From assembly GCA_965229705.1 (NCBI GenBank), contig OZ245922.1, positions 750,001-782,000 on the forward strand: a DNA stretch of 32,000 nt, written 5' to 3'. The stretch comes from Candidatus Saccharimonadota bacterium (GTDB taxonomy: Bacteria; Patescibacteriota; Gracilibacteria; BD1-5; UBA6164). The notes under the pieces are model-generated. The model had not been told where the DNA came from, made no database searches, and worked only from the letters and a program-made list of their open reading frames with translations. Position numbers and translations under genes: made by a program. This document shows positions 11,018 to 26,593 of this stretch, in pieces; the stretch's first letter is position 1; each line of letters begins with the position of its first letter.

Positions 11018-11124
11018 TTAAGGAGGATCTGAAAAACAAAAAATTTCTCATCCTCTCTGTCTCTATCGAGCCATCTCTTCTTTGTAAAAGGAGAGAAAAA
11101 ATGAGTTTCTCAGAGGTTCCTTAA
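11018..11124 (-). repeat. copy 1 of a ~105-bp TIR-bounded intergenic element (inverted relative to copies 3-5)
   Basis: The reverse complement reads TTAAGGAACCTCTGAGAAACTCATTTTTTCTCTCCTTTTACAAAGAAGAGATGGCTCGATAGAGACAGAGAGGATGAGAAATTTTTTGTTTTTCAGATCCTCCTTAA. This is near-identical to 21096..21202. It sits between the divergent starts of the giant gene and the A24-like gene. Confidence 0.8.
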
Positions 11125-11146
11125 AATAAGAATAAATTATAACTCT

Positions 11147-12469
11147 ATGCACATAATATCTTTTATAGAAATCTTTTGGTTCTTTTTTCTCTGGATCAAT
11201 ATATATATTGTTTGGAGAGATATAGCGTTTCAAAAGATAGAAAACGCATCTGTATGAATACTTTTTGCGCTATGATGTATATGATTTTTATTTGGAATAC
11301 TGAGTTTTTCATGGTGAGTATTGCTCTGGTTCCACCTTATCTTCTTGTGTATATTTCTCCTCTTTTACTTTGGTATTTGGTGAGCTGGAGATGCGAAATA
11401 TATACTTGTACTGAGTATATTTTTACCTGTAGGAAGTGTTTTTACACTTTTTTGAAATATTGCGATTGTTACCCTCCTGTATCTCATAGTTCATAGTATA
11501 CATCTGTACATCATCAAAAGTCTGTATGATCTCTCTCATGGGAAAAATCTCTTCATGAAAATATATGCCGACCTCAGATCAAAATTTGATGTATTTCTTG
11601 GAGGAGACGAAGCTCAAAAATATCAATGGAAAAACCTGATAGAAAAAATATTCCCCTTCCTTATAGGGTTTTTGATATTTTTTATCATCGTGCGGCTTGT
11701 ACGAATATATGCTCTATGAGAATGGCTCTGAAATGAAGAGGGGTGAAACAAGATCTGACTCCTACTTCAAATCGCAACAGAGTATACAAGTATGATTGTC
11801 TTGGGAATTATTATATGAATATATATCATCTATAAAGCATGCAAGAAAATCTTTTCCTCTATTTTTATATATGTATATACGCGTTTTTGAGTCTCTCAAG
11901 AAACAGCAAGATATATATGACTTATTGTTTCAAGTATCGGACTTATAGGTTTTATATCATACGAATATATCAGTGGCTCGGAAGTGATATGATGATACCT
12001 TGTCATGATATTCAGCGTATATATATTTCTCTATCTTACTGTGCGTCTTCTCATATATCTCCATTATGTTACTTTTCAACTTGCAGAAGTGGTATATAAG
12101 CGTATTTGAGAACTACAAGTTTGAGAGAGGGTAGACAAAGATTTTTTGATTCAAATTTTTGGAACACAAAAAGCCCTCTGATACGGAGAGAAAAAATGAA
12201 AATATGGTCCTGAACCTCGAAATTTTTTTACAAGTATTGAAAATCCTCTCTCTCAAGAAGCCGTTAAAGAGTTACAAAACATTTATCGACTCACAAATAA
12301 TTATCATATAAGACAAAAAACACCAGGATTTCAAAAAATAGAAGCTGTAAAAACCATCAAAAGTTTTGCTTTTTCTCCTTATATATTTTTCGGACTTATG
12401 CTGACCTTGATATATGATGATGTCCTCAAGAGTATTGTGGAGTTTTTTATCCACCTTATCACATCCTAA
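11147..12469 (+). CDS. A24-family (prepilin/preflagellin) aspartic peptidase-like polytopic membrane protein with a long C-terminal extension (440 aa)
   Basis: The plus frame is open from 10988 to the TAA at 12467-12469 once TGA is sense; the first ATG is at 11147. Two A24-type Asp motifs are present: VWRDIAFQKIEN (Asp codon 11219-11221) and GIW-G(TGA)-AGDAKYILVLSIF (GxGDxK, Asp codon 11390-11392). Many hydrophobic segments occur throughout. Confidence 0.7.
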
Positions 12470-13410
12470 AATACACTCCGTATTTCTTCTATCACTTCTT
12501 TTTTTCTCTCAGGAGATACCGTTTTAGGGTGCACTTTGATATAGTGGTAGTATTTATCATACTCATATATTCCTGTACATATATCATTCCATCCACAATC
12601 TTTGCATTCAGGAAGTTTGGTATGTTCCCAGTCTCTTTGTCTGATAGATTCTCGTTCATCAAGAAAATGTACAATTCTCTCTTCTTCTTTTACTATTTTT
12701 CGTGTTTCTGTAGATGACCATTCATAGCCTTCGATGAAGCAAAGAGGGACCTTCTCTGCTCTAAATGTTCTTCCAGTAGATGTGAGAAAGGCCATGGCCT
12801 CTCTCAGTGAGTCCGAAAACTCTCAAAAATCAGGAAGTGTACTCCAAGCAGTATCTGTTTTACGCATCATGAGAGGGTCTAGATTGTTCCAAACAAAGTG
12901 CTCTATAGGAGGAAAATGACGAACAAGAAACTTCACTGTTGCATCTAAATGATGCTGATTGTAATGGTTCATTACCGTATTGATTTGTACTCGTATACCG
13001 AGGTTAAGAGCGTGCGTAATCGACTTCATCAGGCGTTTCCACGATCCTGGTGTATCTGTCAAAAAATCATGTATTTGTTCATAACAGGAAAAAACAGAAA
13101 AATGTATAAGTTCCAGTCAAGCATCAGCAAGACGCTTTGTATATTCATAACTTGAACAGAGCATCCCATTGGAAATGATTCTATTGGACATACCAATATC
13201 AAGAGCGTACTCTATCCAGGCTGGTAGGTCTTTTGAAAGAGTTGGTTCTCCTCCTGTAAATATCACACCATGATAGCCTCTCTTTTTAAAATCATCTATG
13301 AGCTCAATACCTTTTTCATAGCTAATACTCTTCCCATTACTTGGATTACTACAAAAATGACACTGATTGTTACAATGCCTATTTACTTGTATGTATCAAA
13401 TATTTGCCAT
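12466..13410 (-). CDS. radical SAM enzyme with a Cys-rich (SPASM/twitch-like) C-terminus, 314 aa (rSAM-1; HxsC candidate)
   Basis: Track ORFs 12466..12795 and 12823..13062 plus the stretch up to the ATG at 13408-13410 are joined in one frame by TGA codons. The N-terminus is MANIGYIQVNRHCNNQCHFC, with CxxxCxxC at 13351-13374. Also present: FTGGEPTL and a C-terminal CKDCGWNDICTGIY. The stop is TAG at 12466-12468. Confidence 0.85.
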
Positions 13411-14959
13411 GAGTAAAGAAAAAAATACCATTTTAAACAGTTTCAGTATAATTCCTCTTATGAATCATCAAAAAAATATTTGAAAAAAAGCAGAGAGTAT
13501 ATCCTTGCTGATACATCTGGGGTATCAAACCCCTCAAACAATATTTATTGATACAGAAAGAAATCTACAAGATCAAATCCAAGACATATTTGAGTCGGAA
13601 AACTACATTGTAAGACCAAGTTTTTATGATGAAGATACTCCTCAAAACTCTCAGGCATGAAAATATAGATCATATTGACCAATAAGTCTCAAGGAACTTC
13701 AAATATTTTTTGAGAAAAATCTGAAGGATATATGCTCTATTTTTTGATGAGAAGAACAAGATTTATGAAGTATCATCCTGCAAGAATTTATCAGCACAAA
13801 TACTTATGGTGTTGGATTTTCTCGAAATCCTGAAAACATACTCTTCTCTTGATGATATGAACTTCATTCATCTTTCAATGGTATTACATCAGGGAAAAAA
13901 TGAGATCAAAAAGGATCATTGTTTCTCGATTATAAAATTCAAAAAACCATTAAACGCTTAGAAATTTCTTTTTGATATCCTCAAGATGTTGAGTTTGCCG
14001 TAAAAAAATGACATATATATATCCTCCAAAGTAGAAATATCACTAGTGGGATAACATCTTTTTCGGAATATGCAAAATTTCAAAAAATGAGCGGAATATT
14101 TCAAAACTTGGATAACGGTGAGTTTTGAAGTGTAGCATATTTTTGAGTATCTTTTTTAGAAAACCTATATCATACACTTATCATTTCGTGAAATATCTTC
14201 TGAAAAAGAAAAAAAAATGGAAAAAAGTATTTAGAGCAAGATATACAAAAATTTCAAAATCTTTATGGCAAATACCTAAGATGGAAAAAAATACACTCTA
14301 TAGGAAGCTTTTTTCTCTTTTTTCAAAAATATGATGTAGATGTGCTCTCAACACTTTATAAAAACTGTGCCTATCAATTTTCTCCCACTATAGCAACACG
14401 CTTTCCTGAGATACAAAAAATATGAAACAATTATAATCTAAAAACTTCTTTGTTATTGCGAAGTGAGTTCCTTAAATATAAGGCTTTTCAGGCTTTAGAG
14501 CCGGTAAAAAAACGTATTCTTCAGGAAAATATATTTTGAGAGGATATAAACTATCTATCATATAAAGAATATCAAGATACATCTATCCATCATGAAGAAA
14601 TTATCAAGCAGAGAAAAAAATCTCATGCTATTCATAAGACATATAGCTCTTATATAGTGATGATTCAATGAAAAATCCAAAAAAAATATAACACATTTCT
14701 ATCAGACAATACAGGTAAAATATGGATATATAGATGAAAGCTTACATGAAAAAAAGTCAGAGATATCAAACAGATAGATATAAAATCAAAAAAGAAGTAT
14801 CTTTTGGAAATACAAAGTCTGGATGGAGATATTTCCAGGTACTTGCCCCGTTTATGATGAGTAATTTTGATAAATGGAAATATGTATTCTCACCACTGCA
14901 TACTTTTGCGAGAACATAGAATACCAAGTTACCTTATTTCTGAAGACTGTGAAAGATAG
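13409..14959 (+). CDS. PEP/pyruvate-binding plus PEP-utilising mobile (swivelling His) domain protein, PEP synthase / rifampicin-phosphotransferase-like, 516 aa
   Basis: I checked the plus frame codon by codon from the ATG at 13409 to the TAG at 14957-14959. It contains more than 25 in-frame TGA codons and no TAA/TAG. PPDK_N-like motifs: VRPSFYDED, GVGFSRNPEN, YPQDVEFAVKKGHIYILQSRNITS. The C-terminal mobile domain reads GGVILINGNMYSHHCILLREHRIPSY, matching the family pattern G..tSHaAI.aRe.giP. Confidence 0.75.
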
Positions 14960-15656
14960 GTTCAATAATTTGACGACATTTCCCTGTATCAAGTCAAGTA
15001 TAAAGTCTTAAATAATCTCATTTCTTGGCAGCTTTAGAGTATGAAATACCAGTGTGGATATAGTATGAGAGAGTGATTCTGCATAGGTGCTTTACATCTT
15101 CATCTGCATAGTAGAAATCTTGTGAGGCAAAGATATTATTGAGAATATATGGAGAGGTTTCATTCAAAGTATTATCTACTTTTGTATCAAACTCATTTAT
15201 AAGCCTCTGAAATTGTATATGAAGTGAGTAAGCTGAAAAAACTAAAGGAACATTAAGTAACAAGATTAAAGCAAGCAAAAAGTAGGTTAAGAGGTATATT
15301 CAAAACTTATACACAAACAATAGACTTAGGACAACCCCAATAAGTAGATAAAAACTTATATTTTGATAATCTAACACCGTATCAAAAAACTGTATATTCA
15401 TAAGTCCCAGTTGATGAGGTCATACGAATAAAATAAGTGCAAGATAGGATAATACAACACTCATACTCAATAATATAAATAAGGTTATTCTCCATCTCAA
15501 AAGTAAACATACAAAAGACGAAGCAAAAACTCCTATTGATATATATACAAGTATAGCAATCTCATATATAAATGGTATCACTCAAAGAAAAGGAATAGCA
15601 TATGTAGTGTTATAGCTAAGAAAAAAAATAAAAATAGAAAGAATAATATATTTCAT
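14934..15656 (-). CDS. hypothetical polytopic integral membrane protein, 240 aa
   Basis: The minus frame runs from the ATG at 15654-15656 to the TAA at 14934-14936 and extends track ORF 15018..15278 through TGA codons. The N-terminal two-thirds is almost entirely hydrophobic helices (MKYIILSIFIFFLSY..., LLALILLLNVPLVF). I recognised no family. Confidence 0.6.
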
Positions 15657-15680
15657 AGGAGTTTATAAAAAATAATAACA

Positions 15681-16961
15681 TTATAATTTTTCTATCGGTT
15701 CAAGTATTTGAAATCCATAGCTTCGCAGAAAGTTTATATGAATTCCTTCACAGTTTTTAAAGTATTTACAAGAGTTGCACCTCAAAGATTTCTTTCGATA
15801 CAGCGTATCTATATACCTGTAAGTATAATCCGAGAGAGAATCCTCTGCTTTGACATCATGATAGTTTTGATATTTTCCTGATCCTCATAAACATTTTGGA
15901 ATATTTATGAGTTTGCCATGCTCTTTTTGTTTTTTCTTCAAAAATGCTCGAAACTCCTCCGGGCTTTCTCCATATGACTCATATACCTCACTTGGAAAAT
16001 TTTTTCATTCTACAATGTAGGCTTTCTCAAAAACTTGCTCCGACTCTTTGAGGTTTTTTAAAAATCAGTGACAAAACTGATGCTGAAAACATACCTCACA
16101 TGCGTCCCCAAAACAGCCTGGTTTTTCTTGTCATTTCGAAAGGATAAATCTCTCAAACATCCTATAGGCTTCTCCCATGATCTCCGACTTAAACTTGCGG
16201 GGGTCTTGTATTAGGTCTTCATATCCTTCAAACGCCTCAGCAGGAAATCTATTAGTCCACATATACATGCCCTCTACTCGTGAAAGACTCCAGGTTCGTA
16301 TAAGCTCATCCTTATAGTCCGCAATCTCATAAAAAAGTTTTTCTTTATTTTGCCTAAATCCTCTCCCAAAAGGAATAATCTGAAGAATATCAAACTCATA
16401 TACTCACAATCGCATAAAAAATGAAATAATATCAGGAAGGTAACGAACATTTGGCTTACAAACTACGATATCAATATTGACAATAACTTCGGGAAAAAAT
16501 TTTCGTATATATATCAATCCTGTAAGAGCTCTCTGAAAAGATCATGGTGCGTCTACGAGATAATCATGGAGTGCAGGGGTATGTCCATGAAAAGAAAATG
16601 TTACTTCCTCGAGTCCTGCGTCCACGACTTTTTTACAAAAGTCATAACTACGGAACATATTTCCATTTGTGACCGTTTGTACTCTATCATACCCAAGTTC
16701 CTTTGCGTAGCGTATATATTGTGGAAACTTTGGGTTGATACTTGCCTCTCCTCAAGAAATGATGACTCGGTTTTCATAACCTGCCTTGTACCCGTCTTTG
16801 ATTTCTTTTTTTACTTGTTCTTCTGAAGGAAATGTCCCATTTTGAGCATCGCTATCAAGACAAAAAACACATTTAACATTACAAGCAGAGGCAATGCGTA
16901 CCCAAATGCGATTTTGTTTTGTTGTGTGTTCTTTGGAGAGAAGATTTTCTTTATAAACCAT
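15681..16961 (-). CDS. radical SAM enzyme with two C-terminal Cys clusters (SPASM-like), about 426 aa (rSAM-2)
   Basis: I walked the frame from 16985 down to the TAA at 15681-15683; all interruptions are TGA. Motifs: ACNVKCVFC (16860-16883), VIIS-G(TGA 16752-16754)-EASINP for the GGE motif, and C-terminal CFGDACEVCFQHQFC and CNSCKYFKNCEG. The start is either the ATG at 16959-16961 or the TTG at 16983-16985. Confidence 0.85.
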
Positions 16962-18258
16962 AGTTTTTCTGTAATAAGAGAACAAATGAGGTATATCATC
17001 ATTTTTCGTTTTCCAAAAGGCTTTTTACATCTATATTTTCTATGAGGAGTCTATCTATAACTTTTGACTGTAAAGGCAAGATGATATCATTGTCTTGAAG
17101 TATTATTTCTCTATGAGGTCCATCATAATATATAAATTTTTTATATCAAATCTCCTCAAAAAAAGAGAGTTCTTCATCAAAGAGTGTATAGTTCTTTTGC
17201 ACAATTGCGAGGAAAAATCTGGCTTTATGAATAGCAAACTTTATTTCTTTTCATTTTCATAATATGTTTTCACAAAGATAGTATTTTGCTTGCTTATAGT
17301 ACCCTTTTCTGAAAAAAAATTTTCATATCCATAAATATATAGTTGCCCTCTGCGAATAAAAAAACTCTTTTCTTCGAGAATAATTTTTTAAGAAAAAGCC
17401 TACTGCTTTCCAATTATGACAATGCAAATAGAGAGCCAGTTCAAAAATAAAAATCCCTTTATTGTTTGGAAAGTATGTATGAGAGAGTTTGATATTTTCT
17501 TGTATTCGTTGGTACACGGCATTTTCTTTCGTCATCATTTCTTTTCGAATATGTGCTTGTTTTTCAACTTGTTCACTATTAAATCAAATGAAATACAGTG
17601 ATCTCACTTTTAAGGCGTAGATTTGTGAAAAAAAGGGATAGATACTACACGCCGTTACTAAATGCTTATATGAAGATAGATGATCTATATGATAAAAACT
17701 TGTATCTACAAATTGTAGCATAGAGCAATAAAATAGATTTTTTTCTGAAAGTTTTTCTCATATGATCGAAATTTTCTCCTGAATCTCTTCAAGATGAATC
17801 GTCAAATAAAATAGTTTTTGAAAAAAAGAAAGTTGGTGAAAAATGATTTTTTCCCTACAAAAAAGTATGTCATAAAGTTTTTTTGTGTATATGTTCACAA
17901 TGGAGGATTGTGATATATGGTTTTTAAACTCTCTTTTGTGTATATCAGTTTGTATCTCAACATATTTCCCCTCTTCACAGTAAGATACAATAGTATAGAA
18001 AAATCTATAGAGTTCTCTTTCTACATTATTTCAAAAAGTATGGTATGAAAATGCGTGATGATGATCTCAGTTAAGATACCTTTCTTCTAGAGAACCTTTT
18101 TTGTATTTTTTTAGCAAAGGACTATTTATATCCAAAAGTGCAGCTTTATCATCAGAGAGACGAACAAGCCTCGTATTTAAAATATGTATAAAAAAGGTGA
18201 AGAAGAGCTCTTCTCATACAAAATCATCTTCACGATTATGAGAAAGCATATCATTCAT
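16951..18258 (-). CDS. hypothetical protein, 435 aa, no recognisable family
   Basis: The minus frame is open from the ATG at 18256-18258 to the TAA at 16951-16953 and contains track ORF 17323..17538. All other interruptions are TGA. The 3' end overlaps the start of rSAM-2, which suggests co-translation within an operon. Confidence 0.6.
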
Positions 18259-18264
18259 GAAACA

Positions 18265-19425
18265 TTATAAGTTTAAATTTTTACTTACACTTTTAAAATT
18301 TAATTCAGGATTTATCTCAAGAGCTTGATCTATATATTCTTTCGATTTTTTTTCATCACCTAAGTTACGCATAGTAGTTCATAGTAAATAGAGTAAATAC
18401 TCATCATCTCCTCCTGTATTTTTATTTGCCATTTCAAAATATGTTTTTGCTTCAGAAAAATTCTTTTTATTAAAGTAATATCTCCCAAGTGCTGACAATA
18501 ATCCAGCATCAGTAGGAAACTTTTCAAGTCCTGAATCAATGAGTTCTTTTGCTTTTGCTAAACTTTTATCCGTATTCTCAGTAATAAGAGGATAAATCTC
18601 TGAGAGCCGTTGATCTATCTCTCTTGACTCAGTATTATGCAGAAGAACATTTTGTAAGTTTTGGTTTTTAGGATCTTTTTCTATTGCTTCTTGTAACCAC
18701 TTTTCTGCTTCGTCATAGCTACTGCGTCATGTGTGCGTAAGATTATGATGTGCAATACCTATACTTTTTATAAGTCGCGGATTCTCCTGTCATCACATCT
18801 CGTATGCCTTTTCAAAGTTTTCCAACGCTCACTCATAATCTCTTTCTTTCATCTGTACGATTCAGAGATTTTCATACGACTCTCATGGATATGATTCTCA
18901 TTGTTCTCCTTTAGCTCTCTCTTGCATATCAAAAGTTAGCGCTTTTTCATGCTTTGGATCAAGTTTCAATATTTTTTGTATATATATTTTTGCATTGTTC
19001 ATATCTCCTATATTCCTATAAACAACAGCGATATTATAGAGTATGTTTGTATTCTGGTCAAAAACAACATCGCTTGTACGAAGAAAAATATTGAGAGCTT
19101 CATCGTATTTCATTTGTTTCATATATAGTTTTCACAAACGAGAAAGGACTCGATGGTTTTGAGGATATTTTTCCGAAAGTGGGAGGAGTATTCCTAGAGC
19201 TTTTTCATACTCTTCTTTTTCCATAAATACTTCCACAATACCAAACTTTTTCTCTATATCATTTATTTCTTCTAGAGAAAGTTCTTGAGGTACAATATCA
19301 GTTATATTATCTACTTCTTGTAGAGAAGTATTTTCTTCAGGCATAATTTCTTCGCTTTTTTCTGTAAAAATATTACACGAAGACAAGAGAAGTATCAGCA
19401 AAAAAAGTGTGGTTTTTTGAAACAT
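18265..19425 (-). CDS. TPR-repeat lipoprotein, 386 aa
   Basis: Track ORFs 19132..19425 and 18898..19122 plus downstream sequence are joined in one frame by TGA codons, ending at the TAA at 18265-18267. The N-terminus MFQKTTLFLLILLLSSC is a lipoprotein signal with a lipobox Cys. TPR-like A/Y/L periodicity recurs (YEKALGILLPL, YDEALNIF, NAKIYIQKILKLDP, YDEAEKWLQEAIEKDP). Confidence 0.8.
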
Positions 19426-19450
19426 ATATTGTTTATAAAAAAGTAAAGTT

Positions 19451-19554
19451 ATGGAAGATATGACAAAAAAATCTTCAATCCACTCTGGCTCTATCGAGCC
19501 ACCTCTCCTTTGAAAAAGGAGAGAAAAAAGGACTTTCTCAGAGCTTCCTTATAA
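19451..19554 (-). repeat. copy 2 of the ~105-bp element (inverted; one arm degenerate)
   Basis: The reverse complement reads TTATAAGGAAGCTCTGAGAAAGTCCTTTTTTCTCTCCTTTTTCAAAGGAGAGGTGGCTCGATAGAGCCAGAGTGGATTGAAGATTTTTTTGTCAT.... Its right end overlaps the last codons and the TAA of rSAM-3 (19549-19551). Confidence 0.75.
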
Positions 19555-20520
19555 TATAATAGGTGTAAATATATCTTGAAACTCTTTTTCTCAAAATTGT
19601 TCTACATATCATTTCCATACTCACTGACAGGCATCTCGATATATGCATTTTTTACAGTGTGGAAACTGCGTTTTGAGAATGTCTTTCTTTCGTTTTTTCC
19701 AATTAAACTCATCCCCAGCATTGATATGGTCAACCTCTACAATATGATCATGATCTTCTCACAAATATTTTCGCGTGAGTTCTCTCCCATTTTTTTTATC
19801 AATAGCATAAAACACACAAGCAGGAATAGTATCAAAAGTGATACGTATATCATATTTTTCAGATATGTATATCAGTTTTTTTATATATGGGATAAAGTCA
19901 GAGTAGGTAATAGCCAGATCATCCCAGTACTCTCTCATATCATCATTGAGCCACATAAAGTTATAACGAATATCCCTCACTGATTTCTGAAAAGCGTAAA
20001 ATATTGCTGCTTCTCCCACAGTCTCGTAGTTCTTTTTATTGACAACATAGTTGATACTCAAGGCATCTTTGAGTAGTCCTTGCCTATGAAGTTCTTGGAG
20101 ATTATCTATTGCCTGCCACTTTCGTTCAAGTCCTCAGGGAACCTGGATGAGGTATTCTTCTACTTGTGGGATATATGAATGTATAGAGAAATTGACTCGC
20201 GTCACTCACGACTCAACAAATTTTCTTGCAAATAGGGGATCATCAAACTTCATGCCATTACTGATAACATTGATACTTGTAAATCCTTCATCTCTTGCAC
20301 ACGAAATAATCTCAAAGATTTTTGGATGTATAGAAATATCTCATCATAAAAATCCTATCGACTCATACCCTTCTGCTGCGTAGCCGGCTATCTTTTCTTG
20401 AAGGATTTCGAGTTTGACAAACTTGATATCCCAAAGCTCTGGTTTAGAACTCATACAAAAACGGCATTTATTATTACACGCCTTTCAAATATTTATCTCT
20501 ATATGCTTGTAGGGATTCAT
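19549..20520 (-). CDS. radical SAM enzyme with a short Cys-rich C-terminus, 323 aa (rSAM-3; HxsC candidate)
   Basis: The frame runs from the ATG at 20518-20520 to the TAA at 19549-19551 and includes track ORF 19759..20061. The N-terminus is MNPYKHIEINIGKACNNKCRFC (CxxxCxxC at 20455-20478). Also present: GFL-G-G(TGA TGA)-DISIHP and a C-terminal CKKCIYRDACQGVW. Confidence 0.85.
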
Positions 20521-20593
20521 ACTTTTTTCACTAAAATATTCCCTATAAGTGTACGAAGTTTACTCTCATCTCTATATTTTTTGAATTTTTTAT

Positions 20594-20622
20594 TTGACAA
20601 AATATATCTATATGTATATAAA
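20594..20622 (+). promoter_or_regulatory. putative sigma70-type promoter for the lipoprotein gene
   Basis: TTGACA at 20594-20599, a 17-nt spacer, then TATAAA at 20617-20622, preceded by a T-rich TTTTATTTGACA context. It lies inside a ~60-bp block (20541-20599) that is duplicated at 24254-24311. Confidence 0.45.
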
Positions 20623-20661
20623 TACTCCTGCAGAATAATTTATTCTTTAAATATTTTTATT

Positions 20662-21087
20662 ATGATGCAAGTAAATAGTCATTTAGGTGTTAACGAAAGT
20701 GCAAAAACACAAAGATCTCCTGTATATTGAATTGCTCATGCTGTAATAATAGCTGCTACTGCAATTCTTGCTACTTGATGTTCATCAGCTCCAGCAAACA
20801 CTGGTCAAGAAACTGTACTATCTGTAATAGAGGAATGACAACAATTTAAAAATTGGCCAACATTAGATAGATTCGGTCAATGTGAGTTCGACGATGAGCC
20901 TGAATATTATCAAAGACTGTGAGGAATGAGTACTAGATCAGAGCTAGAAGCTTATTATGAAGAAAATTGATGGGCTTTAAAACCTTGAGGTTACTGACAG
21001 CTTGTATTGAAGGTTTTGAAAAATGATCGTTTAACAGAAGCGGATAAGAGATCTCTCAGCTGTATCACTCTTGCGGGTTCAAATTAA
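20662..21087 (+). CDS. small lipoprotein, 141 aa, unknown function
   Basis: From ATGATG at 20662 to the TAA at 21085-21087, with 9 in-frame TGA codons. The lipobox is AILAT-G(TGA 20776-20778)-C-SSAP. The rest is acidic/aromatic (QCEFDDEPEYYQRLGG...EAYYEENGW). Confidence 0.7.
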
Positions 21088-21095
21088 AGTGTCAC

Positions 21096-21202
21096 TTAAG
21101 GAGACTCTGAGAAACTCATTCTTTCTCTCCTTTTACAAAGGAGAGATGGCTCGTTAGAGACAGAGTGGATTAGAAATTTTTTGTTTTTCAAGGTCTCCTT
21201 AA
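21096..21202 (+). repeat. copy 3 of the ~105-bp element (most complete copy)
   Basis: TTAAGGAGACTCTGAGAAACTCATTCTTTCTCTCCTTTTACAAAGGAGAGATGGCTCGTTAGAGACAGAGTGGATTAGAAATTTTTTGTTTTTCAAGGTCTCCTTAA. The terminal inverted repeats are TTAAGGAGAC...GTCTCCTTAA. The central perfect hairpin is TCTCTCCTTT-tac-AAAGGAGAGA. It lies between convergent gene ends. Confidence 0.8.
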
Positions 21203-21284
21203 AAAATATTTATCATACCCCTACATTGAGGTGGAGATTTTATATTATCGCTAAAGTCATTGCGTATATATAAAAGAAATCTTG

Positions 21285-21812
21285 TTATCTACCTCTTGTG
21301 TGTTGGTCTTTTCAACTTGATGAACTCCCATGACTCCCGTGTGAACCATGACTTCCGTGTGAACCATGTGATCAGTGAGATCAGTGACTCCCATGACTTC
21401 CATGGCTTCCATGTGATCAGTGACTCCCATGACTTCCATGTGATCAGTGACTACAGTGTCCTACAGGTGTCGCTGTTGCCGTAGGCTGAGCATTAAAATG
21501 TCCATTCACGATACCGCTTGAATGTGCTATAGAAAGGTTACATCACAGATTATAATTTCGATTTGATCCAGGATAACACACAGGAGTTGCACCTCATCAT
21601 CTATTTCCACTAAAGTGACCATACACTTCGGGTTCATTTATAGGATTAGCATATGAGTTACACTTTGGAAGCGCCGCATCTGCAAGCTCAATTCATCAAA
21701 GTAGCAGTCAGGCAGCTCCTATACCAAAAGCATCTTTTTTTGTGACTTTTCCACTCTCATCGGTGAGAAACTGTGAAAGTTTGAGTTTTATTTTTGGGAT
21801 TTTATTTTTCAT
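21285..21812 (-). CDS. hxsA: His-Xaa-Ser repeat protein (HxsA-like), 175 aa, ending in HCS followed by 14 HGS
   Basis: The minus frame from the ATG at 21810-21812 to the TAA at 21285-21287 contains 11 in-frame TGA codons. Translation: MKNKIPKIKLKLSQFLTDESGKVTKKDAFGIGAAGLLLGGIELADAALPKCNSYANPINEPEVYGHFSGNRGGGATPVCYPGSNRNYNLGCNLSIAHSSGIVNGHFNAQPTATATPVGHCS-(HGS)x14-SSSGKDQHTRGR. It lies 9 nt downstream of the HxsB-like gene on the same strand. Confidence 0.85.
21324..21458 (-). repeat. 15 x 9-nt coding tandem repeat (His-Xaa-Ser units)
   Basis: There are 15 consecutive CAY-(TGT/TGA/GGN)-(TCN/AGY) units. Gly is encoded by TGA in 4 units and by GGA/GGG/GGT in 10. Synonymous codons are mixed for all three positions. 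Confidence 0.9.
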
Positions 21813-21821
21813 GAGGTATTG

Positions 21822-23216
21822 TTAAAAAGCATAAGTAATCCATCGAGAAAAAAGTTTTTTTGCAAAATCATCATTTTCCAGTTTATCAAAGATATAGTCT
21901 AAAATTCATAACTGAAGCTTCATTTTTTGGTCTTCCATCATCGGAGAAAAGAGTGACTGATTTGTCTGAAAATTATGAATAATATCTACTCCAAGATATG
22001 GTTTATAAACATGGTCATTGTATCCAGGAAGTCCATCGAGACAACTCGATTGTACGGCTATCTTTGTAATAGGACTCGACATCATCGCTTTATAACTTTC
22101 TGCTCAATTTTCTTTGAGTTCTGTCATCAAAAAGTCTTCTATTCCCATTCGCCCTAACATGCGAGACTCATCACTTGCATAAATTTTCCCATCATAATTG
22201 TATGCCACTCACCCCACAGCAATACCACTCGGACTTCGTATATCCATAAATGCAGGATCAATATCATTAAATATCTTCATCAGGTACACAGAAGTGATTT
22301 GCTCTCTAAAGTCTTTTCACTGCTTGTTCAACTCTAAAATATAATCCATAGATTTTGTATAAAACTCCAGCCATTCATCTGCGGTATATGCCAATTTTTT
22401 CATATCTGCTGCGGCAAAACCATAAGGATTGAGCCATCTCAGAAAAATACCATCAAGTCATATATCCAAATAACTGTTAATAAGTCTTTGATATTCTGGA
22501 AGATTCTTCTTGGTTACCGTCATGAGAGCCCCTATCTTTGATCTCCCTTCTTTTTGTTTTCTGGCATTGATATGTTTGATCCAATAAGTAACTTTTTCAA
22601 AGCTATTTCCCTGAAAACCCGAACGATTCATATTATGATGTTGTTCATCGCCATCAAGGCTGGTACAGATAGAAATATTTCTCTCTAGGAGCCAATCCAG
22701 CTTTTCGTGAGTCATCAGTGTGAGATTACTCACGAGAGCAAAGCTCAGATTTTTTTGGAGATATTGAGCTCGAATGCTGGCATATTCAACAACAAATTGC
22801 AAAACTTCCCAATTTACCAGTGGTTCTCCTCACTGAAACTCTATGGTAATATTTTGTGCATTGGTATGAAGTATAGTATCAACGCATCTTTGCGCCGTCT
22901 CTTGCGTCATATCCAAGCCCTTTGCCGACATAGGTGCTACCGCTGCATGACAATACTGACAATGATGATTGCAACGAAGCGTCAGCACCATCATATGAAG
23001 AGCAGGTCATTGTCCTACAAAATGACTTTTTGCACCATAGGCTCTTGTCATCCATCTCTCATAATCTGGAGTTTTGATAAAGCCTTTTGCAACAAGGTCT
23101 TCGTAAGCATCAAGTTTTTCGAGAGTATTTCATGTAAGAAATGTTTCAAAATCTTGAGCAGATAAAAAATGAAATCGTCATGCGTCATTTGTGAGGAGAT
23201 ATGATCATGACATCAT
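21822..23216 (-). CDS. hxsB: radical SAM maturase, HxsB-like, 464 aa (rSAM-4)
   Basis: I walked the frame from ATGATG at 23211-23216 to the TAA at 21822-21824; it includes track ORF 22458..22802. Motifs: LTLRCNHHCQYCHA (Cys codons 22950-22973) and IEFQ-G(TGA 22830-22832)-GEPLV. It has the long N-terminal pre-domain and the size typical of the larger of the paired Hxs radical SAM proteins, and it sits directly upstream of the HGS-repeat gene. Confidence 0.8.
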
Positions 23217-23271
23217 TTTTTTAAAGCGAAAAAATCATATTTTTTCGGTATTTATACCTAAAATGCTCTCT

Positions 23272-23481
23272 TTATTCATACTGTATGCTTATAACATAAT
23301 TCATAAATTCTTGGAAAATATACGCCTCTTCATAGTCTTTTCCCTTTGAGGTAATAGTAATAAGAAATGTTCCTTCAGAAGAAGTAACAACAATATCAGC
23401 AATATCTTTATAGGCCTCTTTAGCACTTTCAAGAGCGTATTTTCAGTATATTTCTGAAGAAATTGAAAAAGAAGGTGTCAT
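23272..23481 (-). CDS. small protein, 69 aa, resembling the N-terminal half of the adjacent HxsD-like protein
   Basis: From the ATG at 23479-23481 to the TAA at 23272-23274: MTPSFSISSEIYGKYALESAKEAYKDIADIVVTSSEGTFLITITSKGKDYEEAYIFQEFMNYVISIQYE. The pattern is the same as residues 1-80 of the upstream gene (I..S.EIY...I..A.Y, a beta-rich middle, then EEIF..Y.N). Confidence 0.5.
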
Positions 23482-23487
23482 ATTTTT

Positions 23488-24045
23488 TTATTGAGTTTTA
23501 AACTTTTCTTTCATATCTTTCATCCCTTGAAGGTTTGCGGTAATTTTTGGCTTTTGTATACTTTTCTCTTCTATCTCCTTAAGTACTGACTCTATTTGCT
23601 TCGTATCTATATGGAGTTCTCTATCTTCTTCTATTTCTTTGAGTATATCATCTATATCTCTATCAAAATTGATGCTGTTATGAGCATTCTCATTTTGATC
23701 GCTATCATACGATACAAAGTGCTCTTGATCAAGAGGTCCTGTGAGAGCCTTATGAATAATGGTTTCTCGAATTTTTTGATTATCTTTTTCAAGTCTGTCT
23801 CGGAGATATGTGTCCAAAAGTTGATTGCTATATCTTCCAAAAATCTCCTCAATATCTGTTTCTACTCCATCTTTGAGGCTGATACTGAGAACAAGTCTCT
23901 TATCTGCGTCATAGTGAAAGAAAAAATATCCTATATCAAGGAGGTTATATGCCGCCTTAAAAATAATATCTTGAGCATAAATACTGGTATCAAGTATGAG
24001 TTCTCATTTTTTTCACTCGGCTTTTATAGAAAAAAAATCATCCAT
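23488..24045 (-). CDS. hxsD: HxsD-like protein (LLNDYxLRE-motif family), 185 aa
   Basis: From the ATG at 24043-24045 to the TAA at 23488-23490, extending track ORF 23488..23817 upstream through 2 TGA codons. It contains YSNQLLDTYLRDRLEKDNQKIRETIIHKAL, which fits the xLxDxxLR[DE] core of the HxsD signature, and it is the first gene of the hxs operon. The C-terminus is an acidic, coiled-coil-like tail. Confidence 0.65.
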
Positions 24046-24121: not shown

Positions 24122-24227
24122 CCTCAAAGAACCTTTGAGAAACTCCTTTTTTCTTCTTTTTCAAAGGAGAGATGGCTCGCTAGAGCCAGAGTGGATTGGT
24201 GACTTTTTGTTTTTCAGAGCTTGCTTA
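24122..24227 (+). repeat. copy 4 of the ~105-bp element
   Basis: CTCAAAGAACCTTTGAGAAACTCCTTTTTTCTTCTTTTTCAAAGGAGAGATGGCTCGCTAGAGCCAGAGTGGATTGGTGACTTTTTGTTTTTCAGAGCTTGCTTAA. It sits between divergent gene starts. The second small hairpin is GGCTC-gcta-GAGCC. Confidence 0.75.
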
Positions 24228-24305
24228 ACTATTATATCCCTTTATATATTTATCCCTAAAGTGTACCCAGTTTACTCCCATCTCTATATTTTTTGAATTT
24301 TTTAT

Positions 24306-24334
24306 TTGACATACATTATAAAGTGATTATATAT
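24306..24334 (+). promoter_or_regulatory. putative sigma70-type promoter for the lipoprotein gene at 24372
   Basis: TTGACA at 24306-24311, a 17-nt spacer, then ATATAT at 24329-24334. It is embedded in the duplicated block 24254-24311, which is about 88% identical by eye to 20541-20599. Confidence 0.45.
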
Positions 24335-24371
24335 CATAATACGAAATAAAAACAAAGTCATAGGAGTTCTC

Positions 24372-24734
24372 ATGTTTAGATTATTTTGGGTCTTAGCCAG
24401 TTCTTCTCTTTTTTTTTCTGCTTGCGACATTTCGCAAGCAACAAAAAAAGAAAGTAATGTATTCAGCGCTATCGCGCCGAGATACAAAGATTTTTCTGGA
24501 GTCGACCACAAAAATATTCTTTGTGCCAATCCCGAAACCTATCGTACGGTAGGTCGAATGAAAACGGTTAAGCAAGTTCAGCGTTATTACGCTGAACTCG
24601 GATTCACAGGAGATATCCCTCGTGACAGCCCTTATGGGGCTGCAATTACTGCACTGCAAGGCACCAGCTTCACAATGCAAAAGGAAAAAGAGGAAGCATA
24701 TTGCTTCCATCAAGAGGACACAGGAGAGCTATAA
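24372..24734 (+). CDS. small lipoprotein, 120 aa, unknown function
   Basis: The track ORF is intact with no TGA. MFRLFWVLASSSLFFSAC is a signal peptide with a lipobox Cys. An SD-like TAGGAG lies 6 nt upstream of the ATG, and a strong terminator follows. Confidence 0.75.
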   Translation: MFRLFWVLASSSLFFSACDISQATKKESNVFSAIAPRYKDFSGVDHKNILCANPETYRTVGRMKTVKQVQRYYAELGFTGDIPRDSPYGAAITALQGTSFTMQKEKEEAYCFHQEDTGEL

Positions 24735-26434: not shown

Positions 26435-26436
26435 CT

Positions 26437-26526
26437 TTAAGGAACCTCTGAGAAAGTCCTTTTTTCTCTCCTTTTACAAAGGAGAGATGACTCTGTAGAG
26501 CCAGAGTGGATTGGAAGATGGTTAAG
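26437..26526 (+). repeat. copy 5 of the ~105-bp element (right arm shortened)
   Basis: TTAAGGAACCTCTGAGAAAGTCCTTTTTTCTCTCCTTTTACAAAGGAGAGATGACTCTGTAGAGCCAGAGTGGATTGGAAGATGGTTAAG. It begins 3 nt after the stop of the preceding gene and lies between convergent gene ends. Confidence 0.75.
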
Positions 26527-26593
26527 TATTCAATTCACTTTCCAATTTTTTATGAGAATTTGGATTCATTTCTGTGTACTATTATTAGGTATT

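What the first reader, a model, noticed from the sequence alone, without database searches (positions are those of the whole stretch)
11147..24045. Expanded 13-kb locus around the HGS peptide: four radical SAM enzymes plus accessory genes beyond the canonical HxsABCD set
The canonical system is HxsA plus two radical SAM proteins (HxsB and HxsC) plus HxsD. Here the core operon hxsD, hxsD-like, hxsB, hxsA runs 24045 to 21285 on the minus strand.

It is flanked by a second minus-strand operon running 20520 to 14934:
- rSAM-3
- TPR lipoprotein
- 435-aa unknown protein
- rSAM-2, which has two extra Cys clusters
- polytopic membrane protein

Beyond that lie a PEP-utilising enzyme, rSAM-1 and an A24-like peptidase. 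rSAM-1 and rSAM-3 are both about 320 aa, with CNNxCxFC and a C-terminal CKxCxxxxxCxG, so they look like paralogues and either could be HxsC.

Four rSAM genes within 11 kb of a small, streamlined CPR genome is striking. It suggests a multi-step modification and export pathway for a surface or secreted repeat peptide. That architecture is not part of the described Hxs system.
Basis: inference. Interest (0 to 1): 0.85.

Follow-up and report, generated by a model that had tools for sequence, protein, structure and literature searches.

The report
Expanded HxS peptide-maturation locus in Gracilibacteria
A tiny symbiotic bacterium that reads UGA as glycine carries a much enlarged version of the HXS system (recently shown in E. 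coli to block phage DNA entry), with several extra radical-SAM enzymes, a kinase-like enzyme and a membrane protease, and relatives share this layout with up to 13 such enzymes in a row.

Summary
Read with code 25 (UGA=Gly), window 11147-24045 holds hxsD, an HxsD-like gene, hxsB and hxsA (15 tandem HxS repeats). It also holds three more radical-SAM genes, a TPR lipoprotein, two unknown proteins, a PPDK_N/PEP-utilizer enzyme and an A24-like membrane protein.

HxsB, HxsD and the HxsD-like protein pass NCBIfam cutoffs. HxsA (53.8 against 55) and the three extra rSAMs do not, although HxsC or HxsC4 is their best hit.

- Every code-25 hxsDBA core with downstream sequence is followed by rSAM genes.
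- One NCBI contig has hxsD-D2-B-A, then 11 co-directional rSAMs including the rSAM-2 and rSAM-1 orthologues, then a convergent A24-like gene and a 13th rSAM just past it.
- The closed HOT-871 genome has a compact version ending in the same A24-like gene.

The window is a short form of a lineage-wide super-locus: a constant 5' core, a constant 3' A24-like gene, and variable rSAM content between.

Function is inferred only. The likely product is a multiply modified, leader-cleaved, exported HGS-repeat protein. It is a new variant of a known kind. Counter-examples exist: a stand-alone rSAM-2, and an array with no Hxs core at its head.

The parts
23488..24045 (-). hxsD (185 aa): HxsD domain plus an acidic C-terminal extension
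   Evidence: TIGR03976 scores 54.0 bits against a cutoff of 50. Orthologues at 46-51% identity lie upstream of hxsB in L001, L007-L010, L018, L024-L026 and L028.
23272..23481 (-). hxsD2, an HxsD-like small protein (69 aa)
   Evidence: NF038315 HxsD_rel scores 52.5 bits against a cutoff of 41. It is conserved between hxsD and hxsB in all CPR loci examined. hhalign against the HxsD N-terminal domain gives probability 88%, E 3e-6.
21822..23279 (-). hxsB, radical SAM maturase (485 aa)
   Evidence: TIGR03978 scores 466.6 bits against a cutoff of 370. More than 120 clusters at 55% identity or above exist, several named HxsB [Ca. Gracilibacteria] by NCBI.
21285..21812 (-). hxsA precursor (175 aa): K-rich leader FLTDESGKVTKKDAFG, hydrophobic segment, HSSGIVNGHF motif, 15 tandem HxS repeats
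   Evidence: Sequence, alignment of 11 CPR HxsA proteins. HxsA4 NF038313 scores 53.8 bits against a cutoff of 55; the HxsA3 leader match scores 31.1 bits.
21324..21458 (-). Tandem repeat: one HCS unit plus 14 HGS units. Four of the 14 Gly are encoded by TGA.
   Evidence: repeat family D1.
19549..20520 (-). rSAM-3 (323 aa), an HxsC-family paralogue
   Evidence: Best NCBIfam hit is HxsC4 at 103.6 bits (cutoff 500), with HxsC at 54.5. It has the C-terminal CxxCx5CxG motif seen in canonical HxsC. Orthologues at 55-71% identity occur in L006, L021, L023 and L027.
18265..19425 (-). TPR lipoprotein (386 aa)
   Evidence: Multiple TPR Pfam hits and a lipobox LLSSC. Only a weak counterpart exists, in L021.
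16951..18258 (-). 435-aa protein of unknown function
   Evidence: No Pfam, NCBIfam or PADLOC hit. The only homologue found is in L021, at 38% identity.
15681..16961 (-). rSAM-2 (426 aa), an HxsC-family paralogue with two extra Cys clusters
   Evidence: Best hit is HxsC4 at 131.7 bits (cutoff 500). More than 120 orthologue clusters reach 60% identity or above. Eleven Cys are invariant. The AF2 model has pLDDT 86.6, and only the rSAM core matches PDB entries.
14934..15656 (-). Polytopic membrane protein (240 aa)
   Evidence: Sequence. One orthologue at 37% identity occupies the same position in L021. No family hit.
13409..14959 (+). PPDK_N (ATP-grasp) plus PEP-utilizers swivel-His enzyme (516 aa); no PEP/pyruvate-binding domain was detected
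   Evidence: PF01326 scores 47.6 bits. PF00391 scores 16.2 bits on the C-terminus, which is sub-threshold. The closest PDB entries are 5FBS and 5HV1, at E 2e-3. Homologues occur in L005, L006, L018 and L021.
12466..13410 (-). rSAM-1 (314-321 aa), the paralogue closest to canonical HxsC
   Evidence: Best hit is TIGR03977 HxsC at 100.2 bits (cutoff 267.9), covering model positions 29-289 of 292. Orthologues at 61-84% identity lie directly after rSAM-2 in L005, L006, L023 and L027, and tail-to-tail with the A24-like gene.
11147..12469 (+). A24-like polytopic membrane protein (440 aa), a putative GxGD-type aspartyl protease
   Evidence: PF01478 scores 25.4 bits against a GA of 26.5. D25 and D82 (in the AGDAKY motif) are invariant in 8 and in 60 homologues. 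Only 160 representatives exist among 1.84e9 proteins. It sits at the 3' end of the locus in L005, L006, L021-L024, L027 and L028.
20662..21087 (+). Small lipoprotein gene lying between hxsA and rSAM-3; a paralogue lies at 24342-24734
   Evidence: BLASTP E 4e-7. The two share a 53-nt upstream segment at 94% identity. Membership of the system is uncertain.
21096..21209 (.). One of five copies of a ~100-nt MITE-like repeat that bracket the modules; the others are at 11018-11128, 19466-19556, 24122-24235 and 26436-26545
   Evidence: No Rfam hit.

Best explanation
This is a Gracilibacteria-type, enlarged His-Xaa-Ser (HXS) protein-maturation locus.

**Shown directly**
- hxsA encodes a precursor with a conserved lysine-rich leader, a hydrophobic segment and 15 tandem H-G-S repeats.
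- It is co-transcribed with hxsD, a second short HxsD-like protein and the radical-SAM maturase HxsB.
- The single HxsC of the canonical four-gene system is replaced by three HxsC-family radical-SAM paralogues: rSAM-1, rSAM-2 (with two extra Fe-S sites) and rSAM-3.
- The locus also has an ATP-grasp/swivel-histidine phosphotransferase-like enzyme and, at its 3' end, a polytopic membrane protein that keeps both catalytic aspartates of prepilin-peptidase-type (GxGD) proteases.

**Inferred**
- The HxsD-type proteins present the HxsA leader to the radical-SAM enzymes.
- Those enzymes install several modifications on or near the HxS motifs.
- The kinase-like enzyme adds or activates a further group.
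- The membrane protease removes the leader as the product is exported to the cell surface, with the TPR lipoprotein and membrane proteins as lineage-specific helpers.
- By analogy with E. coli HXS, the product may hinder phage DNA entry. That function is not shown here.
For: **Family tests**
- HxsB, HxsD and HxsD_rel pass their curated cutoffs.
- rSAM-1, -2 and -3 have HxsC or HxsC4 as best hit and share the C-terminal CxxCx5CxG motif of canonical HxsC.
- In a full relative cluster, 7 of 10 other rSAMs also hit HxsC or HxsC4 best.

**Synteny**
- All 11 code-25 Hxs cores with downstream sequence are followed by rSAM genes.
- JAQVGG010000016.1 carries hxsD-D2-B-A, 9 rSAMs, rSAM-2, rSAM-1, the convergent A24-like gene and one more rSAM, in about 17 kb.
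- Closed genome CP017714.1 has the Hxs core, 3 rSAMs and the A24-like gene in about 10 kb.
- hxsA and the A24-like gene are linked in 5 loci, including L023 and L024 where they are 0-1 genes apart.
- At least 10 contig lengths are shared between the HxsB and rSAM-2 hit lists.
- L021 mirrors the window block.

**Other**
- The catalytic Asp residues of the A24-like protein are invariant.
- Tailoring-type genes recur in the arrays: PPDK_N, methyltransferases, an ADI-like protein, an SDR and an ATP-PPase.
- The canonical mechanism comes from Li et al. 2026, PMC13128918.
Against: - No experiment or expression data link the extra genes to HxsA; the link is by synteny only.
- The rSAM-2 orthologue stands alone in L020.
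- The L022 array has no Hxs core at its head and no HxS ORF within 21 kb.
- L005 and L006 show no Hxs gene within 10 kb, although their arrays run off the locus.
- HOT-871 lacks rSAM-1, -2 and -3 orthologues.
- rSAM-1 and rSAM-2 are far more conserved (60-84% identity) than HxsA (36-49%), which would also fit a housekeeping role.
- No rSAM reaches the HxsC or HxsC4 cutoffs.
- The A24-like Pfam score is just under threshold, and its confident model has no PDB match.
Confidence: 0.65

Rival explanations
1. Two separate systems lie side by side. One is a minimal Hxs module (hxsD, hxsD2, hxsB, hxsA, perhaps with one HxsC-like rSAM). The other is an independent, Gracilibacteria-wide module (rSAM-3 ... 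rSAM-2, rSAM-1, A24-like, PPDK_N) that acts on another substrate, for example pilin-like or other envelope proteins.
For: - rSAM-2 stands alone in L020.
- The L022 array lacks an Hxs head.
- HOT-871 has Hxs without rSAM-1, -2 or -3.
- N_methyl pilin-like genes recur near the A24-like gene in L005, L022 and L023.
- rSAM-1 and rSAM-2 are conserved at 60-84% identity.
- In the window, the two blocks are separated by an opposite-strand gene and repeat elements.
Against: - The A24-like gene stays with the Hxs core even where rSAM-1, -2 and -3 are absent (L028), and it lies next to hxsA in L023 and L024.
- The extra rSAMs belong to the HxsC family, whose only known partner is the Hxs system.
- The blocks form one co-directional run with overlapping genes in JAQVGG010000016.1.
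- No alternative precursor was seen.
Confidence: 0.22
2. The extra rSAM genes are housekeeping enzymes (cofactor, tRNA/rRNA or lipid modification) that happen to neighbour hxsA.
For: - Weak similarities to MoaA, NirJ, AhbD, Tes and viperin models.
- One HemN-like member occurs in relatives' arrays.
- rSAM-2 is strongly conserved.
Against: - All those hits cover only the generic rSAM core and score far below their cutoffs (for example MoaA 72 against 325).
- HxsC or HxsC4 are the top hits over nearly full length.
- Copy number varies from 3 to 12 paralogues between genomes, which does not fit a housekeeping role.
Confidence: 0.06
3. The locus is a defence island in which several unrelated antiphage systems (HXS plus viperin-like rSAMs) have accumulated.
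For: - PADLOC pVip hits of 43-70 bits.
- ParD/RelE and a DGR cassette are inserted within relatives' arrays.
- HXS is an antiphage system.
Against: - HxsB gives the same generic pVip score, and the pVip matches cover only the N-terminal core.
- The end genes have conserved order and orthology across genomes, unlike defence islands.
- No CPR-type HxsB is found on viral contigs.
Confidence: 0.05

Closest known systems
Canonical HXS / HxsABCD system (predicted by Haft & Basu, as cited in PMC9062424; shown to be antiphage by Li et al. 2026, PMC13128918)
   Same: It has HxsB and HxsD above curated cutoffs, a precursor with tandem His-Xaa-Ser repeats plus an N-terminal leader or signal, and a second radical-SAM partner of the HxsC family with the same C-terminal CxxCx5CxG motif.
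   Different: - Gene order is D-D2-B-A with no hxsC between hxsB and hxsA; the canonical order is D-B-C-A in 99.6% of systems.
- It has 3 HxsC-like paralogues (up to about 9 in relatives), where more than 99.8% of canonical systems have four genes.
- It adds an extra HxsD-like protein, a PPDK_N/PEP-utilizer enzyme and an A24-like membrane protease.
- HxsA has 15 HGS repeats and no detected peptidoglycan-binding domain, against five basic repeats plus a PG-binding domain.
- The host is a code-25 CPR bacterium, whereas 99.7% of described systems are in Pseudomonadota.
NCBIfam variant Hxs models: HxsD_rel NF038315, HxsA3 NF038309, HxsA4 NF038313, HxsC4 NF038332
   Same: The small ORF passes HxsD_rel. 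The HxsA leader matches the N-terminus of the HxsA3 model and the repeats match HxsA4. rSAM-2 and rSAM-3 hit HxsC4 best.
   Different: HxsA (53.8 against 55 for A4; 31 against 65 for A3) and all HxsC-like paralogues (82-132 bits against 500) fall below the cutoffs. I found no paper describing these variants.
Multi-rSAM RiPP gene clusters with SPASM/twitch maturases (for example SkfB, PapB, SuiB)
   Same: A leader-bearing precursor sits next to rSAM maturases with auxiliary Fe-S clusters, together with tailoring enzymes and a dedicated protease. rSAM-2's structural neighbours include SkfB and SuiB.
   Different: The substrate is a 120-180 aa repeat protein rather than a short peptide. No RRE domain or ABC exporter was found, and the number of paralogous rSAMs (up to 13) is unusually high.
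Type IV prepilin peptidase / archaeal FlaK (Pfam PF01478 Peptidase_A24)
   Same: The N-terminal ~115 aa keep the two catalytic aspartates, the second in a G-x-G-D-like AGDAKY motif.
   Different: It is 440 aa with a ~325-aa extension, has no methyltransferase domain, scores just under the Pfam threshold and has no PDB fold match. The family has only about 160 representatives among 1.84 billion proteins, and none of the best 150 listed is shaped like an ordinary prepilin peptidase (nearly all are full-length 400-460 aa).
Rifampin phosphotransferase / PEP synthase-like dikinases
   Same: It has an ATP-grasp PPDK_N domain and a swivelling His (PEP-utilizers) motif, GNMYSHHCILLREHRIP. The closest PDB sequences are 5FBS and 5HV1.
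   Different: The match is very weak (E 2e-3), no PEP/pyruvate TIM-barrel domain was detected, and the substrate is unknown.

Membership tests
HXS (His-Xaa-Ser) system | HxsB radical SAM maturase (TIGR03978, cutoff 370 bits) | tested here: met
   466.6 bits over model positions 3-466 of 466.
HXS (His-Xaa-Ser) system | HxsD small protein (TIGR03976, cutoff 50 bits) | tested here: met
   54.0 bits.
HXS (His-Xaa-Ser) system | Precursor with tandem His-Xaa-Ser repeats encoded next to hxsB | tested here: met
   15 tandem HxS units at 21324-21458, 9 nt downstream of hxsB.
HXS (His-Xaa-Ser) system | HxsA passes a curated HxsA model (TIGR03979, or A2, A3 or A4) | tested here: not met
   The best score is HxsA4 at 53.8 against 55; HxsA3 scores 31.1 against 65. 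TIGR03979 was not among the families returned at E <= 0.01. Six relatives also fall below every cutoff.
HXS (His-Xaa-Ser) system | HxsC radical SAM partner (TIGR03977 cutoff 267.9, or HxsC4 NF038332 cutoff 500) | tested here: not met
   rSAM-1 scores 100.2, rSAM-2 scores 131.7 (C4) and rSAM-3 scores 103.6 (C4). These are the best hits but lie far below the cutoffs.
HXS (His-Xaa-Ser) system | [quoted passage not shown] 2026) | tested here: not met
   The order is hxsD-hxsD2-hxsB-hxsA, and the HxsC-like genes lie 0.8 to 8.8 kb further on.
HXS (His-Xaa-Ser) system | Peptidoglycan-binding domain in HxsA | tested here: not met
   Pfam gives only a low-complexity Collagen hit.
HXS (His-Xaa-Ser) system | rSAM-dependent modification and N-terminal processing of HxsA; block of phage DNA entry | not testable with these tools
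   This needs mass spectrometry and phage assays, and the host is uncultivated.
HxsD-like protein (NF038315) | Score of 41 bits or more | tested here: met
   52.5 bits for window 23272-23481. Relatives score 35.8-41.4. hhalign to HxsD gives 88% probability.
Peptidase A24 (prepilin peptidase / FlaK type) | Pfam PF01478 at or above GA 26.5 | tested here: not met
   25.4 bits over residues 12-113. Precomputed 'weak' hits exist in four orthologues.
Peptidase A24 (prepilin peptidase / FlaK type) | Two catalytic aspartates, the second in a GxGD-type motif | tested here: met
   D82, in the W[SA]AGDAKY motif, is invariant in 8 and in 60 homologues. D25 is invariant in the 8 and present in at least 90% of the 60.
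Peptidase A24 (prepilin peptidase / FlaK type) | Fold similar to solved A24 or GxGD proteases | tested here: inconclusive
   The model has pLDDT 89.8, but no PDB match reaches E < 1 for the full-length protein.
PEP synthase / PPDK dikinases | PPDK_N, PEP-utilizers and the PEP/pyruvate-binding TIM barrel all present | tested here: not met
   PPDK_N scores 47.6 bits, but only over a 39-residue stretch. PEP-utilizers scores 16.2 against 23.1. No third domain was found, and every NCBIfam PEP synthase model scores far below its cutoff.
SPASM/twitch radical SAM enzymes | Auxiliary Cys clusters C-terminal to the rSAM core | tested here: met
   rSAM-2 has 8 invariant auxiliary Cys, and rSAM-1 and rSAM-3 have CxxCx5CxG. 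No Pfam SPASM hit was found, so the type remains unassigned.

The most novel reading that the evidence does not exclude
The hxsD-D2-B-A ... A24-like super-locus, with 4 to 13 radical-SAM genes, is a lineage-defining envelope-biogenesis pathway of Gracilibacteria rather than an accessory defence system. In this reading, a battery of HxsC-family enzymes converts the simple HGS-repeat protein into a heavily cross-linked or metal-binding surface polymer. That polymer is released by a dedicated intramembrane protease and used for the episymbiotic or predatory lifestyle or for general phage exclusion. The HGS substrate and paralogue series would then offer a natural 'dissection kit' for the still unknown HxsB/HxsC chemistry.
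Probability: 0.25. Interest if true: 0.8.

Novelty: new variant of a known kind. Interest (0 to 1): 0.62.

Why it matters
**What is already known.** HXS was shown in 2026 to be a four-gene antiphage system, almost confined to Proteobacteria, that blocks phage DNA entry. Its radical chemistry is unsolved: a +8 Da change on one HxS motif.

**What this locus adds.**
- The same core exists widely in code-25 CPR bacteria, in a much larger form.
- HxsC is multiplied into 3 to about 9 paralogues.
- A second HxsD-type protein, tailoring enzymes and a dedicated GxGD-type membrane protease are added.
- In one relative, the locus spans about 17 kb of a ~31-kb contig; genomes of this lineage are about 1 Mb.

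**Why that is useful.**
- It widens the known range and architecture of HXS.
- It names a candidate for the leader protease, which is unidentified in the E. coli system.
- It gives biochemists a simple Gly-only repeat substrate with a graded set of enzymes.

**Practical warning.** Public protein collections hold this genome translated with UGA as Trp, which hides Gly in catalytic motifs such as GxGD.

Tried and rejected
- **Table-11 ORF listing** is useless for this window, so I replaced it with code-25 translation.
- **First frame for the 'hxsD-like' ORF** (23289-23570, poly-Leu) was wrong. The conserved ORF is 23272-23481.
- **Genome scan with single HxsB** found only one CPR relative, because the patterns were too specific. 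It cannot serve as a census.
- **Homologue search for the A24-like protein** saturated on hydrophobic words and gave 4 hits. The exhaustive HMMER search replaced it.
- **Fold searches:**
  - The A24-like model has no PDB match.
  - rSAM-2 matches only generic rSAM cores.
- **PADLOC** gives only generic viperin-core similarity, which HxsB shares.
- **The 435-aa protein** has no relatives among the other array proteins.
- **L026 and L023** could not be joined by DNA overlap.
- **Giant protein 1-10863** is not homologous to the ~800-aa gene that flanks the locus in relatives.
- **The promoter and terminator scan** was uninformative, with fewer promoter-like sites than in shuffles.
- **Rfam and tRNA scans** found nothing.
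- **Viral contigs** carry no CPR-type HxsB.
- **Literature searches** found nothing linking Gracilibacteria or Patescibacteria with rSAM arrays.

Full report
**1. Genetic code and source**

With the standard bacterial code the window has no ORF longer than 384 aa. With UGA read as sense, it resolves into tightly packed genes, including one longer than 3655 aa.

UGA is glycine, on two lines of evidence:
- In the hxsA repeat, the middle codon of H-X-S is GGA, GGG, GGT or TGA interchangeably.
- The 11 UGA positions of HxsB align to Gly 13 times and to Trp never in three standard-code HxsB proteins, including the invariant GGEP motif.

Database proteins P0001, P0121 and P0242 differ from my translations only by W in place of G at every UGA codon. 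The window therefore comes from a 1,006,762-bp NCBI/ENA contig that the collection holds translated with table 4. Close homologues are labelled Candidatus Gracilibacteria.

**2. The observation**

The Hxs block is compact: hxsD, 6-nt gap, hxsD-like, 8-nt overlap, hxsB, 9-nt gap, hxsA.

The second block has two parts. rSAM-3 comes first, then a 123-nt gap holding a repeat element. Then come TPR, the 435-aa protein, rSAM-2 and the membrane protein, with gaps of 6, -11 and 24 nt.

The PEP-like gene is inverted. rSAM-1 and the A24-like gene overlap tail-to-tail by 4 nt, exactly as in L005, L022, L023 and L027.

Between hxsA and rSAM-3 lie an opposite-strand lipoprotein gene and a repeat copy.

**3. 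Family tests**

| Protein | Best model | Score (bits) | Cutoff |
|---|---|---|---|
| HxsB | TIGR03978 | 466.6 | 370 |
| HxsD | TIGR03976 | 54.0 | 50 |
| 69-aa ORF | NF038315 HxsD-like | 52.5 | 41 |
| HxsA | HxsA4 | 53.8 | 55 |
| rSAM-1 | HxsC TIGR03977 | 100.2 | 267.9 |
| rSAM-2 | HxsC4 | 131.7 | 500 |
| rSAM-3 | HxsC4 | 103.6 | 500 |

- The 69-aa ORF also matches the HxsD N-terminal domain by profile comparison (probability 88%, E 3e-6).
- HxsA narrowly misses HxsA4, and its leader resembles the HxsA3 model. It reaches no cutoff, and neither do six relatives.
- The rSAM-1 match to HxsC covers model positions 29-289 of 292. The three rSAMs are HxsC-family paralogues, not members by the curated tests.
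- They share the C-terminal C-x2-C-x5-C-x-G motif of canonical HxsC (CEGCLKKGDCGG in L002).
- Housekeeping models (MoaA, NirJ, AhbD and others) match only the generic core, at 40-75 bits against cutoffs of 230-650.
- rSAM-2 has eight invariant auxiliary Cys in 38 orthologues. Its confident AF2 model (pLDDT 86.6) matches only generic rSAM cores in the PDB.

**4. Synteny: the Hxs core is followed by rSAM genes**

A scan with HxsB found 14 code-25 loci. Every one with downstream sequence shows hxsD-(hxsD2)-hxsB-hxsA followed by one or more rSAM genes. L007 has seven rSAMs in 12 kb. In L018 the array runs into PEP-utilizers-like and PPDK_N-like genes.

**5. Synteny: neighbourhoods anchored on rSAM-2**

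rSAM-2 is strongly conserved, with more than 120 clusters at 60% identity or above. Its orthologue sits in tandem arrays of 7-13 rSAM genes with PPDK_N.

It is followed directly by the rSAM-1 orthologue (61-84% identity) and then by a convergent A24-like gene.

L021 mirrors the window gene by gene:

| Gene | Identity to window |
|---|---|
| rSAM-3 | 71% |
| 435-aa protein | 38% |
| TPR | weak |
| rSAM-2 | 74% |
| membrane protein | 37% |
| inverted PEP | 38.5% |
| rSAM-1 | 84% |
| A24-like | 42% |

**6. Synteny: loci that contain both ends**

Two loci join the ends directly.
- **JAQVGG010000016.1** (GCA_028696815.1) carries, in about 17 kb: hxsD, hxsD2, hxsB, hxsA, a 228-aa gene, nine rSAMs, rSAM-2, rSAM-1, A24-like (convergent), one more rSAM, and then housekeeping genes. 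That is 13 rSAM genes.
- **The closed genome of Gracilibacteria HOT-871** (CP017714.1) has: atp operon, hxsD, hxsD2, hxsB, hxsA, three non-rSAM genes, three rSAMs, A24-like.

Further links:
- L024 has the Hxs core, an adjacent A24-like gene, a second hxsA-like ORF and an rSAM-1 orthologue on one 18-kb contig.
- In L023, an hxsA gene lies one gene beyond the A24-like gene.
- Ten exact contig lengths occur in both the HxsB and rSAM-2 hit lists.

The picture is a super-locus with a constant 5' core, a constant 3' A24-like gene and a variable rSAM battery. The window joins the core directly to the distal conserved block (rSAM-3 ... rSAM-2, rSAM-1, A24-like).

In the full JAQVGG cluster, 7 of 10 other rSAMs are again HxsC- or HxsC4-like. 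One is HemN-like, one is PapB/HxsB-like and one is twitch-type.

**7. Counter-evidence**

- An rSAM-2 orthologue (74% identity) stands alone among housekeeping genes on a 15-kb contig (L020).
- The L022 array begins after a glycosyltransferase, with no Hxs core and no HxS ORF in 21 kb.
- L005 and L006 show no Hxs gene within 10 kb. Their arrays run off the locus, however, and the first gene of L005 is 52% identical to a gene inside the Hxs-headed arrays of L007 and L001.
- HOT-871 has no rSAM-1, -2 or -3 orthologues.
- The TPR gene, the 435-aa protein and the membrane protein are found only in the window and L021.

These points keep alive the rival reading that two modules are merely adjacent.

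**8. Components relevant to mechanism**

*HxsA.* CPR HxsA proteins share a fixed layout:
- a leader, M..KK.FPK.KKKL..FLTDESGKITKKDALG
- a ~15-aa hydrophobic segment
- a variable region
- the motif H[AS]SG[IV]VNGH[YF]
- 6-15 tandem HGS units (three in the HOT-871 copy), usually ending in RW

*A24-like protein.*
- It keeps D25 (xDIxxKxIPN) and D82 (W[SA]AGDAKY). D82 is invariant in 8 and in 60 homologues; D25 is invariant in the 8 and present in at least 90% of the 60.
- Its family is small and uniform: 160 representatives among 1.84 billion proteins.
- Its Pfam score is just under threshold (25.4 against 26.5).
- Its confident model (pLDDT 89.8) has no PDB match.

*PEP-like enzyme.*
- It has a PPDK_N ATP-grasp segment and a weak PEP-utilizers swivel-His motif.
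- Its closest solved sequences are 5FBS and 5HV1. From my own knowledge these are the Listeria rifampin phosphotransferase.

*Other tailoring-type genes in relatives' arrays* include a TP_methylase-like protein, methyltransferases, an SDR, an ADI-like protein and an ATP-PPase.

**9. Comparison with what is known**

Li et al. 2026 (PMC13128918) report the following for HXS:
- HxsB, HxsC and HxsD mature HxsA by N-terminal processing and a +8 Da change on SHRSS.
- HxsC binds HxsD.
- The product acts in the periplasm against phage DNA entry.
- 99.7% of systems are in Pseudomonadota, more than 99.8% have four genes, and 99.6% follow the order D-B-C-A.

The present locus shares the core parts but fails the HxsC, HxsA-model, gene-order, composition and PG-domain features.

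NCBI already names Gracilibacteria HxsB and holds variant models: HxsD_rel, HxsA2-4 and HxsC4. I found no paper describing rSAM arrays in Gracilibacteria or Patescibacteria. PADLOC 2023 has no HXS model.

**10. Verdict**

It is best described as a new, enlarged variant of the HXS system, typical of code-25 CPR bacteria.

The proposed mechanism is leader-guided multiple radical-SAM modification, possible phosphoryl transfer, intramembrane leader cleavage and export. It is inferred from synteny and family resemblance. No step has been shown.

Noticed in passing
window 11018-11128, 19466-19556, 21096-21209, 24122-24235, 26436-26545: Five copies of a ~100-110-nt interspersed intergenic element. 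Mean column identity is 76%. It has a central hairpin (CTCTCCTTTGTAAAAGGAGAG) and ~20-nt terminal inverted repeats, so it looks MITE- or REP-like. There is no Rfam match. The copies bracket the modules of the locus.
   Followed up: partly
window 20547-20599 and 24259-24311; genes 20662-21087 (+) and 24342-24734 (+): Two paralogous small lipoprotein genes (24% identity, E 4e-7) flank the hxsDBA operon on the opposite strand. They share a 53-nt upstream segment at 94% identity that ends in TTGACA.
   Followed up: partly
window 1-10863 (-): A giant ORF of more than 3621 aa, with 82 in-frame UGA codons across the full ORF and an N-terminal signal anchor, runs off the window. It is not homologous to the ~800-aa gene that flanks the locus in relatives.
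   Followed up: partly
database proteins P0001, P0121, P0242 (1,006,762-bp contig): The public collection holds this genome's proteins translated with UGA as Trp. All differences from the code-25 translation are G to W, including in the GxGD-like motif of the A24-like protein, where many homologues read SAWDAKY.
   Followed up: yes
P0135, on the same 1,006,762-bp contig as the window: The source genome encodes a second HxsB paralogue, 52-63% identical to all the CPR HxsB proteins. This implies a second Hxs locus outside the window.
   Followed up: partly
L022 11968-16715: A diversity-generating retroelement is inserted between the rSAM-2 and rSAM-1 orthologues. It consists of an N_methyl/Fib_succ_major target gene, bAvd and a reverse transcriptase.
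   Followed up: no
L023 5820-6474: A ParD/RelE toxin-antitoxin pair sits inside the rSAM array.
   Followed up: no
L024 3857-6210: Two hxsA-like genes flank the A24-like gene. The first (176 aa) has lost the tandem HGS repeats, and the second keeps six.
   Followed up: partly
L026 3451-3855; L028 6825-7226: A small RNase H / RVT_3-type gene is embedded in the atp operon, between the gamma and beta subunit genes, just upstream of the Hxs locus. The atp operon precedes hxsD in L001, L010, L018, L026 and L028, but not in the window.
   Followed up: no
L001 (CAZFWS010000017.1): This contig is labelled 'Candidatus Peribacteria', but it clearly uses UGA as a sense codon and carries a Gracilibacteria-type Hxs locus. 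The label may be wrong.
   Followed up: no
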